Below are positions 9,431 through 18,611 of a stretch of DNA of 64,000 nucleotides, in pieces (the stretch's first letter is position 1; every line of letters starts with the position of its first letter). The stretch lies in NCBI GenBank assembly GCA_951406725.2, contig OX597831.1:56482001-56546000 (forward strand). Direction: 5' to 3'. The notes beneath the pieces are model-generated. The model did not search any database. It was given only the letters and a program-made list of their open reading frames with translations, and was not told where the DNA came from. The DNA comes from Octopus vulgaris. Taxonomy: Eukaryota. A program made the position numbers and the translations under genes.

Positions 9431-10761
9431 CTGCAAGGTGGGAGAAGAAAAATGTATATATAAAATTGTATATACAAAGTATGACTTGTTTTCATTTTAT
9501 ATACAAAGTATGACTTGTTTTCATAGAATACAAGGTTAATTTTTAGAGGGGTGAGTCAATGTTGTTTAAACTGGCCCCAGTGGACTGCTTGGTATTTATT
9601 TTCAATATTTACATCTACAGAATTGTTAGCAAGCCAGGCAAAATGCCAAATGGCATTTTGTCTGTCTTTATGTTCTGAGTTCAAATTCTACCGAAGTCCA
9701 CTCTCCTTTCTTCCTTTTGAGATTGATAAAAACAGTACCATTTGAGCACTGGGGTCAATGTACTCAATTTAACTCTTCCCTCCAAATTGCTGGCCTTGTG
9801 CCAAATTTTGAAACCAATTTTTATATCTACATCACAGTTTAATTGTTAGGTGCTTTATTCCTTGATATATACATAATGTCAGACTAGATTCAAAGTAGGG
9901 GGCTTTATTTTTAAACTATCCCCTACACTGCCAACTTGTGAATAAATGAGTTTAAAAATAAAGATTTCAAGTTTTAATTCAGTCTGGTACTATGTACATA
10001 ATGAATATTAAGACACCAGATGACAATCAGGGATCAGGCATCCAGCTGTAGAAACTCTGCCAGATCAGATTGGAGTCTGGTGTAGCCATCTGGTTCACCA
10101 GACCTCAGTCAAATCGTCCAACCCATACTAGCATGGAAAGCGGACGTTAAACGATGATGATGATGACATAAAACAGTATGTATTAGAAAACCTGAAATAA
10201 ATCTAAAGTAGTTAACCTACAGTTTTGAGCTGTGGAACTTTAAAACAAATATGAACACATCTTCATATACTGAAATATAAAGATTGTTCTGATGTGATAA
10301 AGGTGCATGGCCTAGTGGTTAGAGTGTTGCACTCAAGATTACAAGATTATGGTTTCAAATCTCGGTCCAGGAATTGAAACCACAATCTTACAGTCATTGT
10401 GTTCCTCAGTAAAATGCATCATTTCAAGTAGCTCCAACCCTTTTAGCTATAAATGAGTTACCTTGACATCCTGTTCAGTGGGGAATGCTATGTCAGTCAC
10501 TTATACACTCTGGATACCATATAAATCAGCTTTATCAGCCTTAGGACTCAAAACAATACATCAGTGATATGTTACATTGTTACATGGCTCATTGACTACT
10601 TATCAGAGGACAAGTGCCCACTGAATTCTTCTGCCCATTGTGTATACATAAACAATGTAAAAAGTTTTCATTTCTAAGTGTAGTTAGTTGCTTGAAAAAC
10701 TATAATGTTATTCTCATCAGCTTAACTCACATATTTGAACACTAGATGTACAATAGAGGCT

Positions 10762-10989
10762 TTAACCCTTTAGCATTCAGATTACTCTATCAAATGCAAT
10801 GTTTATTCATTCACATTGGCTTGAATTCATCTTGCATTATCTTGTAACTTCAAGATTTCAAAACTGTGACTGTTCAGTTTCAGAATGACATTGCAGGGTA
10901 GGTGTGAGAGGACAGAACCAGTCAGCTTGAACATAAAACAGATAGAATATCTGGGTCAGAAAAGGCCGGTTTAAATGTGAAAGGGTTAA
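10762..10989. mobile_element. piggyBac-type (TTAA) MITE, about 228 bp
   Basis: TTAACCCTTTAGCATT ... AATGTGAAAGGGTTAA; TTAA flanks with CCC/GGG termini. Confidence 0.88.
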
Positions 10990-11321: not shown

Positions 11322-11725
11322 TACTCTTTACTCTTTTACTTGTTTCAGTCATTTGACTGCGCCCATGCTGGAGTACCGCCTTTAGTCGAGAAAATCGACC
11401 CCAGGACTTATTCTTTGGAAGCCTAGTACTTATTCTATCGGTCTCTTTTGCTGAACTGCTAAGTTACGGGGACGTGAACACACCAGCATCGGTTGTCAAG
11501 CAATGTTGGGGGGATAAATAGACACACAAACATATACACACACACACACACACATATATATATGATGGGCTTCTTTCAGTTTCTGTCTACCAAATCCACT
11601 CACAAGGCTTTGGTTGGCCCGAGGCTATAGTAGAAGACACTTGCCCAAGGTGCCATGCAGTGGGAATGAACCTGGAACCATGCGGTTGGTAAGCAAGCTA
11701 CTTACCACACAGCCACTCCTGCACC
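11322..11725 (-). mobile_element. tRNA-derived SINE, family B (internal microsatellite, AGAGTA-type tail)
   Basis: Minus-strand head GGAGTGGCTGTGTGGTAAG...GGTTCA(G/T)TCCC. Other copies at about 27325-27500, 35262-35336, 40145-40403, 40618-40948, 41205-41452, 50480-50836, 50987-51387, 55360-55683. Confidence 0.9.
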
Positions 11726-12231
11726 TAATGTTAATTAGAAATTAGTAATATTTATTAACAAGAAATAAAGGACATAATATCACTCAGACAAAGTTCCCCA
11801 CCCCACTCTCATTCACGAAGTGATGGTGTAACTATATGAATGTAAGATTGGATATATTTTTCAAATGGCTTCCTTATTGATGAAATTTTAGGTTTTGACA
11901 AGGAAAGGACGAAGCTTCTTAGCACAAATTGTAAGTTTTATCTCTTTCAATACAAAACTGCCCAAGACTGCCCATGGATCTAAGATACAAACTTTCTATT
12001 TTAAATTAACCTAAATTAAATCTTTCCACAGAAATATCATATTAATTTATGTTCCAAACACCGTTTAATAATGATAAAGTTATTTTACTAACTTCTTCAT
12101 TATTACCAAAATTATAACAAAGGCAGTGTATTTTAACAGGAATTTGTTAATAAAAGGGTTAAATAAAAAAGGTAAATAAATAAACACAATTAAAAACAAA
12201 TGTATGTGTATTCATGACAGTAAAATCTTAC

Positions 12232-12526
12232 TCTTGGCAACAGGCTTCTTTTCAGGTTCTTTTTTAGCTTCTTTTGCTTTTTTATCACTTTGAGAAACAA
12301 CAGATTGCGAAGCTGTAGCAGATTTTTCTGTAATCACAGATTGCGAAAGCCCAGGAGATTTTTCTACAGAGTCACTGGGTTCAGGTGGTGCTAGTTGCTG
12401 AGCAAATTGCATGAGGTCAATTATTGCAGTTTGGTCAAGTAGTAGTTCTAGCATGGAGAAAGAGACTGATATTGATTGTTCAGTGTTCTTGTAAACTATT
12501 TTGAAGTCAGGAGCATCAAGGTTAGC
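12232..12526 (-). CDS. VPS13: VPS13 exon ANLDAPDFKIVYKNTEQSISVSFSMLELLLDQTA...KKPVAK
   Basis: 295 nt, CAG/GTAAG, phase 0-1; ORF 12212..12454. Confidence 0.93.
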
Positions 12527-12708
12527 CTGTAAAATAAATAATAGCTTACAATGCTCAAAGGTAACAAAATAAAAAGGAGAGTTTGAATTTAACTTTTTTA
12601 ATATCTTTTATAAAGGTTTCTTTTAGGTATTTTTAAAAAATTGGATTAATATTTTGAGAATTTGAGACAATTTCAGTTCAGTTTACGAAATATTTCTAAC
12701 AGATCTCA

Positions 12709-12944: not shown

Positions 12945-14219
12945 TACAGACTCCATGCCATTCTTGGATATACTAATTAAAAAAATTAACCTTAAAATAG
13001 AAACAGACATTTTTTACAAAGCCACAGACGCCAAACAATACCTACTTTTTGATTCATGCCACCCAAGACACACTAAAACAAACATCCCCTTCAACCTTGC
13101 AAGAAGGATATGCACAATAGTGTCAGAACAAAATACCAGGAACTTTAGACTGCAAGAACTCAAAAACACCCTAATTGACAGACATTACCCAGCTCAACTC
13201 ATAGAGGATGGGATCAGACGTGCAACAGAAATCAACATAGAAACTTTGAGAAAAGTTCAACACAACAACACACCTTCCCCGAAAATACTACCTTACATAT
13301 CCACATACAACCCCAGAAACAAAGAAGCCTTCACCATCATCACCCAGAATTTACCAATACTTCATAAGGACCCCAAATTAAAGGAAATTCTAAACATACA
13401 CCAAATCATTAAAAGCTACAAACAACCTAAATCACTTAAAAAGATTCTCACAAAGGCAAAATTGTTTTCTGAAATTACGGATGCAAAAGTAAAAAAATGT
13501 GGTAGACTGTGCAACATGTCCAAACCTGCTAGAAGGATCAGAATTCCTCTTCAAAGAGGGACAGAAATTCAAGATCAAATCTAATTATACTCGTGCCTCT
13601 GAAAACAATTTATGTCATAAAATGCTCGGGCTGCCACCAAAACTATGTGGGGTCCACGGGACTATCACTCAGACGTAGATGCACACTGCATCGACAACAG
13701 ATTGCATTCCCAGAATACAGAATGATACCCTTTAGTGAGCACATTGAGAAATGCGCAAAGCAACTACTACCACAATTTTTAATCTTTCCATTTTATCAAT
13801 GTGCTATCGGAACACCAACACAAATTAGACTAAACAAGGAAACATTCTTCATTGAAAAATACAAGCCCAAACTTAACCATTCCAACATACTTATACAGAG
13901 AAACTCACCCCCCAAAAAGGCAAGAAATATTAAGCGATTATCTCCCTTACACCGGAAGAAATCACTTATTACCTCCCCTTATCTGGAACTCTTCTTTACA
14001 CTTCTCAACGAAAACATAACGATGTAAGAAATTTGAAAAGCTGAACGCGAAACCGGTCATTTCTTCAAAAACTATGTCATTGTATGAAAAAAATTTATAA
14101 CATTCTTCTGACATAATGACTCAAATATATATTTTTTAACCTTTTAAAACAAGCCTTCTGTAGTTTTTTCACTTTTTACTATATATTCAACCACGTGCTT
14201 TCATACACCAACTTTCTCA

Positions 14220-14220
<1 letters not shown>
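12945..14220 (+). mobile_element. Penelope-like retroelement, 5'-truncated (RT C-terminus, GIY-YIG endonuclease, pLTR)
   Basis: ORF 12955..13584 has PFLDILI, TDIFYKATD, SCHPRHTK and IPFNLARRI; ORF 13593..14027 has IYVIKC..C..NYVGST (GIY-YIG); frameshifted; followed by a (TA)n tract. Confidence 0.93.
14026..14065 (+). ncRNA. Minimal type I hammerhead-ribozyme-like motif (U3/A8 core variant) in the Penelope pLTR
   Basis: AAGAAAT-TTGAAAA-GC(TGAAC)GC-GAAA-CCG-GTC-ATTTCTT: 7-bp stem I, 2-bp stem II, palindromic ACCGGT, GUC triplet. Confidence 0.7.
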
Positions 14221-14257
<37 letters not shown>

Positions 14258-14932: not shown

Positions 14933-14974
14933 CTAGACAAACATAAAACATGAAGGTTTTTAGTTACATGTTAT

Positions 14975-15492
14975 TTAACCTTTTATTATTCAGATTATTA
15001 TGTCAAATGTAATGTTTATTTATTCACATTCTTTTTGATTAATCATGCATTATTTTGTAGCTTCAAAATTTTAATGATGTGGCTGTTTATTTTTAGAACG
15101 ACATTACAGGGTAGGTATGACAGACCAGATCTGGTTGGTTTAAAAATAAAACAAGCAGAATATTTCATCACCTGGCACAAGGTCACTGCCTCCAATGCCC
15201 ATACCCCCTCCCCTCTCACTGGGTCTTTGTCTGGTAACTCTGCCATTGCTGGTGTCACTTAGAAGACATCCAGTCCACACTGTGAAGTGGCTGGCATTTG
15301 ACCTCACCTGTACTGGTGCTACATAAAAAGCATTCAGTCCAAATCCAGCCAAAACAGACACTGAAGCCTGGTGCAGTCTTCTGCCCAGCCAGCTCCTCTC
15401 AAACTGTCCCAACCCATGCCAGCATGGAAAGCAGATGTTAAATGATGATGATGATGATGATGATATGACTGGTTTAAATGCTAAAGGGTTAA
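14975..15492. mobile_element. TTAA MITE interrupted by a family C retroposon
   Basis: MITE 14975-15165 resumes at about 15463 and ends AATGCTAAAGGGTTAA; the insert ends in (GAT)n. Confidence 0.82.
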
Positions 15493-16396
15493 AGAAATAA
15501 GTCAATCTATTGACAATATCTTCTTCAATATTTATTATGAACAACCAGCTACAAGCTGTTGTTGTGGTTGCTGCAATAGAAATTCTGTTACGATTCAAGT
15601 TGAATTGGCAGAAATCTTCAAGTTGAATTGAATTACGATTTAAAACTGCTGAGGGAGAACTTGGTTATAAAGACTGTGCCTTGGGCAAGTTTGTTAGAGT
15701 AGCTTGCATTCTCTTTAGAAGATGGATCCACACTGTAAGTGCTGTTCCAATGGAACCAGGTTACAAGCTCAAACTCTGCTACAACTGTTAAGATGTTTGT
15801 AGGCAAAGCTTACCAGGTTACATTTCATAAATATGACAGTGGTAAGGACATCCAACAGTAAAAACTGGTTTCTCCAACAGTAAAAACATAAGCTCAGCCC
15901 TTACTCATATATATAGAATTTCCAAAAACTAAGCTCCTAGTATAGTCAAAATGATGAGGGGAAAATAAAGTGAAAAAAATTTTTTTTCTTTCAATATCAG
16001 ATAGGATACTAATGTTTAAAATATACTTTTGAATGAAAGTTTTAATACTGTACACATGGATTTCGAATTCCACTGAGGTCAACTTTGCCTTTCATCCTTT
16101 TGGGGTTGGTGAAATAAGTACCAGTTGAACACTGGGGTTGATATAATCGCCTTGCCCCCTCCCCTGAAATTGCTGGCCTTGAGTCAAAATTTGAAGCTAA
16201 TATAATACATATGAGTTTATAGTAAGATCCTTCAGTACAATAAATATATCATATATTACAGTCTTTTAAATAATAATTTTTCACTTCATAAAGCTTCTAA
16301 TATCCAATATCAATTTTAGGCTTTAAGAATTCTATTTTAAATTTGAAAACTCAAGAATATTACTGAGAATAAGAAATATAAATCCATATAACTCAC

Positions 16397-17380: not shown

Positions 17381-17594
17381 TACTCTCTCTCTCTCTTTTA
17401 CTTGTTTTCAGTCATTTGACTGCGGCCATGCTGGAGCACCGCCTTTAGTTGAGCAAATCGACCCCGGGACTTATTCTTTGTAAGCCCAGTACTTATTCTA
17501 TCGGCCTCTTTTGACGTACCGCTAAGTGATGGGGACGTAAACACACCAGCACCGGTTGTCAAGCAATGCTAGGGGGACAAACACAGACACACAA

Positions 17595-17645
<51 letters not shown>

Positions 17646-17810
17646 TACGACAGGCTTCTTTCAGTTTCCATCTACCAAATCCACTCACAAGGCATTGGTT
17701 GGCCCGGGGCTATAGCAGAAGACACTTGCCCAAGATGCCACGCAGTGGGACTGAACAAGGAACCATGTGGTTGGTTAGCAAGCTACTTACCACACAGCCA
17801 CTCCTGCGCC
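17381..17810 (-). mobile_element. tRNA-derived SINE, family B
   Basis: Near full-length homolog of 11322-11725; head lies about 57 nt from the exon donor at 17867. Confidence 0.9.
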
Positions 17811-17867
17811 TATGTTGTTCATAATCATTTCCATCACTGCATATTTTTTCTTCATTGTATTACTCAC

Positions 17868-18003
17868 CTTAAAAATGTCTTCTTCTGGTGGTGGAGGTTC
17901 AGATTCAGGAAAAGGAATACTCTGAAGGAGTTGAAGAATTGCTTGTAGTTTGCGGTCAGAGATACTCAGACTCAGCAATGGCAGCTCTCCAAAGGCTTTC
18001 ATT
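17868..18003 (-). CDS. VPS13: VPS13 exon MKAFGELPLLSLSISDRKLQAILQLLQSIPFPESEPPPPEEDIFK
   Basis: 136 nt, TAG/GTGAG, phase 2-0; ORF 17787..18011. Confidence 0.94.
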
Positions 18004-18611
18004 CTAATCAAATAGATATGAATTATTAGTCATTTATTCATAAAACTGGAAAAGGGAATGAAGATTTTACTCCAACTTGTGTAATACTTGAAATTATTCC
18101 AAGATTGTAATTACATTATAGGAAGTTTTTTTGGGGGATGGGGGAATTCAAACATATATGCTATCTTCCACCAAAAAAAACCCCCCAAAAAAACAAACAT
18201 ACCAAAGATAATCAGAAAATTGCACAAGAAATTCCTTCTCTAAAAGAGAATTGTTACTGAGTTATAGATACTAAACAAGACTTTCAATACAGTTCACAAC
18301 TGAAAAGGAAAAGGACGATAAATTGGCCTTTTTGAATGTGCTAATAAGTCATTCAGAGTGTGGGCTCATAGTGTCTGTATATCACAAGTTCACTTTTACC
18401 AGACAATACTTGAACTTTGATTCCCACCATCCATGCAGTATCAAGGGATCACCTGTGGCTTACAGCATCAAGCATAACTCATAAGTGCCTCTCCAACATA
18501 CACTAAAAAAGTGATGGTCAAGATAAAGAAGACCCTTCAGGGTAACAACTACTCTGCAAGTATAGCATCAGCTTCCAAGAACAGGAACATAAAGGTAGAG
18601 AATCATCATCT

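What the first reader, a model, noticed from the sequence alone, without database searches (positions are those of the whole stretch)
14026..14065. Penelope-borne minimal hammerhead with an apparently compensatory U3:A8 core
Seen: just downstream of the GIY-YIG ORF the + strand folds as a type I hammerhead. It has a perfect stem I (AAGAAAU/AUUUCUU), a 2-bp stem II, GAAA, a self-complementary ACCGGU in place of helix III, and a GUC cleavage triplet. The core reads UUGAAAA instead of CUGANGA. Established: Penelope-like pLTRs carry minimal hammerheads with palindromic helix-III regions that can act as dimers, C3 and G8 form a tertiary base pair, and the U3:A8 swap retains activity. Inference: the only two core changes fall exactly on that pair, which suggests a functional covariant ribozyme lineage that CUGANGA pattern searches would miss, rather than random decay.
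Basis: partly seen in the sequence, partly recalled or inferred. Interest (0 to 1): 0.72.

Follow-up and report, generated by a model that had tools for sequence, protein, structure and literature searches.

The report
Penelope hammerhead with U-A core pair
A broken copy of an abundant jumping gene carries a tiny hammerhead RNA motif, predicted to cut itself, whose usual C-G core pair is U-A throughout its family; that swap is already published, and other families in the same genome use A-U, G-C or C-G there, which likely means the pairing is kept by selection, although cutting has not been tested.

Summary
The motif is real and sits at the stated coordinates: a type I hammerhead fold in the end repeat (pLTR) of a 5'-truncated, frameshifted Penelope-like element, antisense inside a VPS13-like gene. 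U3:A8 is the family state, not decay: 98 of 100 listed copies of the subfamily have it and none has C3 or G8. Genome-wide, one descriptor gives 5,180 U3:A8, 1,449 purine-3 (86 of 100 listed A3:U8, 5 G3:C8), 227 U3·G8, 104 C3:G8 and 96 pyrimidine-3 mismatches. Stem I, which was not in the descriptor, covaries across families. Two copies fold best as a double hammerhead. But U3-A8 hammerheads in Penelope pLTRs were published in 2014 (PMC4209133), and this scan noted them before, here and in other genomes. Copy ends do not map to the predicted cut (0 of 30), and a U3·G8 sub-lineage spread, so cleavage is probably slow and not needed for insertion. Cutting was not tested. Verdict: new member of a known kind; the four-way covariation is the one point of added value.

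The parts
14026..14032 (+). Hammerhead stem I, 5' strand (AAGAAAU)
   Evidence: Sequence; pairs 7/7 with 14059-14065; stem I covaries across 13 flank-defined clusters, 59 of 65 cells paired against 27.3 +/- 4.6 when 3' strands are permuted
14033..14039 (+). Core U3-U4-G5-A6-A7-A8-A9, with U3 (14033) and A8 (14038) in place of C3 and G8
   Evidence: family state; no substitution listed at 14033 or 14038 at the 1% level in contigs of four public runs from four coded organisms (contigs only)
14040..14048 (+). Stem II (2 bp, G10.1-C11.1 and C10.2-G11.2) with 5-nt loop 2; no extra nucleotide between A9 and G10.1
   Evidence: a sister subfamily has U10.2-A11.2, others keep only G10.1-C11.1; loop 2 varies freely
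14049..14051 (+). Core G12-A13-A14
14052..14057 (+). Palindrome ACCGGU (A15.1 to U16.1); predicted to form a 6-bp helix III only between two copies
   Evidence: Closing it within one molecule costs energy (+3.5 against -2.3 kcal/mol); the cofold MFE of two 40-mers is the double hammerhead, -13.3 kcal/mol
14058..14058 (+). C17; predicted cleavage 3' of this base (GUC triplet)
   Evidence: Hammerhead numbering; N17 is C, A or U in the recurring subfamilies, G in 1 of 146 motifs; cleavage not shown
14059..14065 (+). Hammerhead stem I, 3' strand (AUUUCUU)
12958..14221 (+). 5'-truncated copy of a Penelope-like element (RT thumb, Cys linker, GIY-YIG, pLTR with the hammerhead); single hammerhead, no tandem or inverted partner at this locus
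   Evidence: Homology with other copies starts at 12958 and ends at about 14221; only one descriptor hit in the window
12958..13925 (+). Remnant of the ORF (end of RT, linker, GIY-YIG endonuclease), broken by two frameshifts near 13505 and 13606
   Evidence: tblastn against the open frame of L076: three frames, 88-94% identity; Pfam GIY-YIG E=0.0016, below the curated cut-off
14066..14221 (+). Rest of the pLTR; in full-length units it continues to the ORF start; copies end at one of two internal TATATA sites
   Evidence: in L128 the ATG is 210 nt after the predicted cut
14222..14254 (.). (TA)n microsatellite into which the 3' end runs (likely the insertion target)
   Evidence: most family copies printed end in (TA)n or (TC)n(TA)n

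Best explanation
This is the type I hammerhead motif of the end repeat of a high-copy Penelope-like retrotransposon, in which U3:A8 replaces C3:G8 throughout the lineage; it likely cleaves slowly after C14058 and only when two copies pair through the ACCGGU palindrome, likely with help from the element's protein. Shown: the motif, its fixation in the family, its place once per 4.0-kb unit about 210 nt upstream of the ORF start, and Watson-Crick covariation at 3:8 and in stems I and II across families. Inferred: because the 3:8 pair belongs to the catalytically competent fold, its covariation points to selection on that fold in master elements. Inferred: cleavage acts on tandem transcripts (limiting or processing them) but does not set the ends of inserted copies, which are made mostly from RNA that is intact at this site. 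This particular copy is a dead passenger: truncated, frameshifted, single, and antisense to the host gene.
For: Family fixation: 98 of 100 listed; 86 of 100 listed U3:A8; the only recurrent core change is A8>G in 10; positions 4-6 unchanged in all 100; loop 2 has many recurring forms. Four Watson-Crick states at family level: U:A 5,180, C:G 104, and among 100 listed of 1,449 purine-3 matches 86 A:U and 5 G:C (counted by eye); pyrimidine-pyrimidine only 42, scattered. Stem I, absent from the search patterns, pairs in 59 of 65 cells over 13 clusters, 0 of 20,000 permutations reach this. Full-length units with a hammerhead in both pLTRs 3,977 and 3,996 nt apart. Double-hammerhead cofold is the MFE for the 40-mer and for 13990-14110. 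Literature: U3-A8 active in vitro as cited by Perreault 2011 (passage); min-HHRs cleave weakly and only as dimers or trimers; a PLE hammerhead cleaves only with the element's protein, depends on the 3:8 pair, and is not needed for insertion in vitro (Frangieh 2024, passages); the C3-G8 pair is seen in the active-state structure, not in minimal ground-state structures (passage).
Against: No cleavage data for this motif. Stem II is only 2 bp (1 bp in some subfamilies) with no extra nucleotide after A9 and no recognised loop-loop contact; ensemble pair probabilities in the dimer are only 0.38-0.48, and with flanks 14010-14085 the MFE dimer loses stem I. A sub-lineage with U3·G8 and a one-base loss at stem I position 1.1 spread to about three quarters of 227 matches, and a retrozyme subfamily with a C3·A8 mismatch makes about 30 of 54 matches. 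Of 30 copies that include the ORF start, 22 run through the intact upstream hammerhead, 8 stop 39-166 nt after it and none stops within 10 nt of the cut; among 94 5' ends within -400 to +100 (duplicates included) 2 lie within 5 nt of the cut, as a uniform spread predicts. Copies are not independent events; the number of independent 3:8 changes is small and the protein tree across families is poorly resolved.
Confidence: 0.57

Rival explanations
1. The fold is kept by selection as a structure (dimerisation signal or binding site for the RT-endonuclease near the site where reverse transcription starts), and cleavage is negligible.
For: Copy ends ignore the cut site; sub-lineages with U3·G8, a shortened stem I or a 1-bp stem II amplified; hammerhead mutants did not affect insertion in vitro for another PLE; Naiad PLEs were reported to spread without detectable hammerheads.
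Against: The 3:8 pair, G5, A6, G12, A13, A14 and H17 are catalytic-core features and are kept across families whose stems differ entirely; a binding site would not need Watson-Crick swaps at 3:8 in four states.
Confidence: 0.2
2. The two hammerheads of a tandem transcript cut out one 4.0-kb unit, which is ligated into a circle; reverse transcription starts at an internal TATATA site and runs round the circle, giving the longer-than-unit copies (model proposed by Cervera and de la Pena 2014).
For: One hammerhead per unit; copies end 125-190 nt 3' of the cut yet 22 of 30 long copies run through the upstream hammerhead by 50 to over 1,300 nt, which a circle explains; 3:8 covariation shows the active fold is kept.
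Against: An uncleaved read-through transcript from a tandem master explains the same ends; no circle or junction evidence was obtainable (contigs only); Frangieh 2024 found unprocessed RNA to be the dominant substrate and no RNA-seq reads ending at the cut in Anolis.
Confidence: 0.17
3. The motif is a non-functional relic: two AT-biased transitions hit a once canonical hammerhead and the result was carried along by an element that no longer needs it.
For: Both changes are G/C-to-A/T transitions in a 33% GC region; the monomer is not unusually stable; no Rfam match.
Against: A3:U8 and G3:C8 families need transversions on both sides; other G and C core positions are kept; stem I and II covary; U3:A8 is shared by families at 50-60% protein identity whose flanks have diverged.
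Confidence: 0.06

Closest known systems
U3-A8 minimal hammerheads in pLTRs of Schistosoma mansoni Cercyon Penelope-like elements (Cervera and de la Pena 2014, PMC4209133; read parts 1-2 of 4 of the text and searched one of two supplementary files)
   Same: Type I hammerhead in the pLTR of an endonuclease-bearing PLE; U3-A8 instead of C3-G8; over a thousand genomic copies, mostly single or in inverted pairs; palindromic helix III region implying dimers; G10.1-C11.1 kept.
   Different: There it is a minority (about 1,300 against about 2,000 canonical); here U3:A8 outnumbers C3:G8 about 50 to 1 for this palindrome, and A3:U8 and G3:C8 families also exist. Stem II is 2 bp rather than 7-8 bp, stem I 7 bp rather than 4-5 bp, and the extra nucleotide between 9 and 10.1 is absent.
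Natural U3-A8 core covariants of hammerheads (Perreault et al. 2011, PMC3088659; passages read)
   Same: Same covariation, stated to occur in several natural examples and to be active in vitro; stem II as short as 2 bp is described as common; repeat-type dimers through palindromic stem III.
   Different: Those examples were not tied to a PLE family census in the passages seen.
Hammerhead of the Anolis Poseidon element PAc (Frangieh et al. 2024, PMC11167929; passages read)
   Same: pLTR hammerhead near the ORF start; internal start of reverse transcription downstream of it; activity depends on the 3:8 pair.
   Different: PAc has C3:G8 and overlaps the start codon, and initiates at RNA not homologous to the target; here the motif is about 210 nt upstream of the ATG and copy ends fall at internal TATATA sites fused to (TA)n.
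Neptune/Nematis-type EN+ PLEs (Craig et al. 2021, bioRxiv 10.1101/2021.04.23.441226; passages read)
   Same: [quoted passage not shown]
   Different: Clade (Neptune or Nematis) was not resolved; no reference tree was built.

Membership tests
Type I hammerhead ribozyme | Core N3-U4-G5-A6-N7-N8-A9 / G12-A13-A14 / A15.1-U16.1 / H17 with a 3:8 Watson-Crick pair | tested here: met
   all positions present, 3:8 = U:A; covariation
Type I hammerhead ribozyme | Stems I and II around the core, stem I open | tested here: met
   Stem I 7 bp, stem II 2 bp; stem I covariation across clusters; U-A for C-G at 10.2:11.2 in a sister subfamily
Type I hammerhead ribozyme | Helix III | tested here: inconclusive
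   Not formed in the monomer; 6 bp predicted between two copies, pair probability 0.38-0.48
Type I hammerhead ribozyme | Site-specific self-cleavage 3' of H17 | not testable with these tools
   Only contigs were available; genomic copy ends do not mark the site
Rfam hammerhead families | Match to a curated covariance model | tested here: not met
   No hammerhead family among 17 matches at E <= 5; not filed under any Rfam family
[quoted passage not shown] | Located in both pLTRs flanking an RT-GIY-YIG ORF | tested here: met
   L128 and L129, sister subfamilies of the window's lineage, carry it in both repeats 3,996 and 3,977 nt apart; the window copy keeps only the 3' one
[quoted passage not shown] | Palindromic 15.2-16.2 and loop 3; G10.1-C11.1 pair | tested here: met
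   ACCGGU and G14040-C14048
Strict min-HHR consensus of that paper (CUGANGAH, long helix II) | [quoted passage not shown] | tested here: not met
   A9 is followed directly by G10.1; consensus line seen; so filed under the wider group of PLE pLTR hammerheads, not the strict consensus
EN+ Penelope-like element with Zn-finger linker (Neptune/Nematis type) | RT with DKG motif, CX2-5CxxC linker, C-terminal GIY-YIG | tested here: met
   L076 ORF: Pfam RVT_1 E=4.8e-06 and GIY-YIG E=0.006, both below curated cut-offs; DKG and CGRPNCATC found
EN+ Penelope-like element with Zn-finger linker (Neptune/Nematis type) | Placement in the Neptune or Nematis clade on an RT tree with reference elements | not tested

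The most novel reading that the evidence does not exclude
In this genome the 3:8 pair of Penelope hammerheads has been swapped through all four Watson-Crick states (U:A dominant, A:U, G:C, C:G), with wobble and mismatch subfamilies caught as short-lived intermediates. Since this pair marks the catalytically active fold, the census would be direct evolutionary evidence that pLTR hammerheads of endonuclease-bearing PLEs are selected to cleave, and that the canonical CUGANGA core is the minority state, so published surveys have missed most hammerheads in such genomes.
Probability: 0.45. Interest if true: 0.55.

Novelty: new member of a known kind. Interest (0 to 1): 0.33.

Why it matters
The role of hammerheads in endonuclease-bearing Penelope elements is stated to be unclear, and one in vitro study found cleavage dispensable for insertion. 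The U3:A8 swap itself is in print, so this motif alone is ordinary. What adds value is the natural series in one genome: paired, wobble and mismatched 3:8 states on closely related scaffolds, with copy numbers as a rough measure of success. That series makes a clean bench test of whether cleavage rate tracks element spread, and shows that descriptor searches for CUGANGA would recover about 2% of the motifs with this palindrome (331 with G8 after a pyrimidine, 104 strictly canonical, of 7,056).

Tried and rejected
Rfam scan: no hammerhead match. Monomer folding: no excess stability. Decay of this copy alone: rejected. A C3:G8 sister subfamily of the window's lineage: none among 100 of 104 listed C3:G8 matches, which are nearly all a 360-bp tandem retrozyme, with a looser pattern, gave 130 matches (control 9) including other possible canonical families that I did not follow. 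Cleavage-defined 5' ends in genomic copies: not found; a cluster of 6 ends at +39 to +68 among the 30 was seen but not explained. Expression and RNA ends: no RNA holder on record was listed; runs laid were contigs, which cannot show ends, strand or level; no conclusion drawn. Protein tree across families to count independent 3:8 changes: poorly resolved, 7 of 17 rows under half filled. Flank clustering merged the window's lineage with A3:U8 families by single linkage, so 13 is a lower bound on families and the link is not evidence of close kinship. Effect on the host gene: the motif is antisense to the VPS13-like transcript, so it would not cut it. Papers not held and so not seen: Przybilski and Hammann 2007, Nelson and Uhlenbeck 2008, Martick and Scott 2006; activity of U3:A8 is taken second-hand, and I found no rate data for U3·G8 or C3·A8 on such scaffolds. 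Searches for natural A3-U8 or G3-C8 in print and for octopus hammerheads found no report, but the library lacks most subscription papers; supplementary file 1 of PMC4209133 could not be searched and may bear on this.

Full report
Observation. The motif is present exactly as described: stem I 14026-14032 with 14059-14065, core UUGAAAA at 14033-14039, a 2-bp stem II with a 5-nt loop, GAA at 14049-14051, the palindrome ACCGGU at 14052-14057 and C17 at 14058. A descriptor of these features hits the window once and 0 times in 300 Markov resamples. The single strand is not unusually stable (z +0.75) and Rfam has no hammerhead match here, as expected for a motif lacking an intramolecular helix III.

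Context. The motif lies in a repeat. A 201-nt query gave 1,780 candidates, of which 40 were scored, at 97-100% identity, in a 2.8-Gb animal genome (earlier notes call it octopus-like; I did not test this). The window copy spans 12958 to about 14221, is 5'-truncated, has two frameshifts and ends in (TA)n. [quoted passage not shown] Two full-length units of sister subfamilies carry the motif in both pLTRs, 3,977 and 3,996 nt apart; the ATG follows 210 nt after the predicted cut. Inverted 5'-truncated partners are common. The window copy sits on the + strand between minus-strand frames that match VPS13C (E 6e-13 and 2e-4), so it is antisense in what is likely an intron.

Is U3:A8 decay? No. With positions 3 and 8 free, 317 exact matches were found (control 0); of the 100 listed, 98 are U3:A8, 2 are G3:A8 and none has C3 or G8. 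With the whole 7-nt core free, 2,035 matches (control 0); of the 100 listed 86 are UUGAAAA, 10 are UUGAAGA and 4 are single variants; positions 4-6 never change, while loop 2 has many recurring forms (counted by eye). Contigs of four public runs from four coded organisms list substitutions only in loop 2, at N17 (C to A) and outside the motif (contigs drop rare variants).

Covariation. One skeleton (N3-UGA-N-N8-AG, 5-13 nt, CGAAACCGGUH) was run for all 3:8 classes: U3:A8 5,180 (control 0), U3·G8 227 (1), C3·A8 54 (1), C3:G8 104 (0), purine at 3 1,449 (9), pyrimidine at both 42 (3). Of the 100 listed purine-3 matches, 86 are A3:U8, 5 G3:C8, 1 G3·U8 and 8 mismatched (counted by eye). So all four Watson-Crick states exist as recurring motifs, and mismatches are mostly scattered single variants. 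U3:A8 is shared by at least three PLE families at about 50-60% protein identity with unrelated stems. Stem I was not in the patterns, yet pairs in 59 of 65 cells over 13 flank-defined clusters, against 27.3 +/- 4.6 in 20,000 permutations, none reaching the observed value (one overlapping alternative parse was dropped from 146 motifs; loci were chosen by 3:8 class, so they are not a random sample). Copies are not independent events, and the tree across families is too weak to count changes.

Signs of tolerance. Within the window's lineage a U3·G8 clade is nested among U3:A8 copies (3 of 45 rows, support 100/99) and makes about three quarters of the 100 listed U3·G8 matches; it also lacks base 1.1 of stem I. 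Some subfamilies keep only one stem II pair. A retrozyme subfamily carries C3·A8 in about 30 of 54 matches. The constraint is therefore real but soft.

Mechanism. Helix III cannot form in one molecule, but the lowest-energy fold of two 40-mers is the double hammerhead (-13.3 against -6.0 kcal/mol for two monomers); the same holds with flanks 13990-14110 but not 14010-14085, and pair probabilities are 0.38-0.48. Published min-HHRs cleave weakly and only as dimers or trimers; the Anolis PLE hammerhead cleaves only with protein, needs the 3:8 pair, and is dispensable for insertion in vitro. The C3-G8 pair is a feature of the active-state structure, so its covariation points to selection on the cleaving fold (inference). 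Genomic copies, however, are not bounded by the cut: 3' ends lie 125-190 nt beyond it at internal TATATA sites, and of 30 copies that include the ORF start (mostly a sister subfamily; 30 of 40 scored), 22 run through the upstream motif, 8 stop 39-166 nt after the cut and none within 10 nt. Among 94 5' ends near the motif, duplicates included, 2 fall within 5 nt, as expected by chance. The template is thus intact at this site, either uncleaved or re-ligated. I commit to slow, dimer-dependent, likely protein-assisted cleavage that processes or limits tandem transcripts without setting copy ends (0.57); rivals are a structural role without cleavage (0.20), a circular template (0.17) and a relic (0.06).

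Comparison with what is known. Cervera and de la Pena 2014 describe U3-A8 instead of C3-G8 in Schistosoma PLE pLTR hammerheads, about 1,300 hits, and Perreault 2011 describe the natural covariation and cite its activity. The motif meets the core, stem and location features of PLE pLTR hammerheads, lacks the extra nucleotide of the strict min-HHR consensus, matches no Rfam model, and its cleavage is untested. Searches for natural A3-U8 or G3-C8 and for octopus hammerheads found no report in the held library. This scan noted the same variant in other genomes (e1-7786987, e1-8836956) and the A3:U8 sister families in this genome (e1-8802259); those notes are leads, not support.

Verdict. Observation confirmed; interpretation supported but already in print. 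New member of a known kind, interest 0.33. The boldest reading not excluded is that the four-state covariation shows selection for catalysis in PLE hammerheads (probability 0.45, interest 0.55).

Noticed in passing
L062-L072, L119, L124-L127, L137, L097, L103, L134 (G000, e.g. C1:20002278-20004542, C4:80857199-80857949): A 360-bp tandem repeat (non-LTR retrozyme-like) with a 4-bp stem II hammerhead and the same ACCGGU palindrome occurs in C3:G8, C3·A8 and U3:A8 forms. On a flank tree (midpoint root only) the dispersed U3:A8 copies fall outside a clade of C3:G8 and C3·A8 copies, which may record a U:A to C·A to C:G path, or decay from C:G.
   Followed up: partly
L078, L089-L091, L098-L102, L107, L131 (G000): A second large U3:A8 PLE family, about 55% protein identity to the window's family, with a 4-bp stem II, GUA triplet and its hammerhead 670-780 nt after the endonuclease region; it makes roughly half of the 100 listed matches.
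   Followed up: partly
L138-L149, L045:689 region (G000): PLE families with A3:U8 and a few with G3:C8 cores, all with the ACCGGU palindrome; a shared palindrome would allow mixed dimers between families (untested).
   Followed up: partly
L108-L117, L129 (G000): A U3·G8 sub-lineage that also lost base 1.1 of stem I, including a full-length tandem unit in L129 inserted just after another family's hammerhead.
   Followed up: partly
L168, L173, L176, L177, L180, L182: Six of 30 long copies have their 5' end 39-68 nt after the predicted cut; could be a transcription start, a template-switch hot spot in an AT-rich near-palindrome, or chance.
   Followed up: no
window 14182-14221 and family copies: Copies end at one of two internal TATATA sites about 40 nt apart and run into (TA)n, suggesting priming by homology with the microsatellite target, unlike the non-homologous initiation reported for PAc.
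   Followed up: partly
window 12215-12607 and 17790-18029, minus strand: Frames matching VPS13A/VPS13C: the host gene around the insertion.
   Followed up: partly
L075 (G000:C27:15929379-15937500), upstream of the PLE copy: A 1,014-codon open frame that looks like an LTR-retrotransposon pol (RT, RNase H, integrase by eye).
   Followed up: no
window 11343-11727 and 17406-17812; 9705-9818 and 16088-16201; 10761-10950 and 14974-15163: Pairs of dispersed repeats at 75-86% identity, probably SINE-like families.
   Followed up: no
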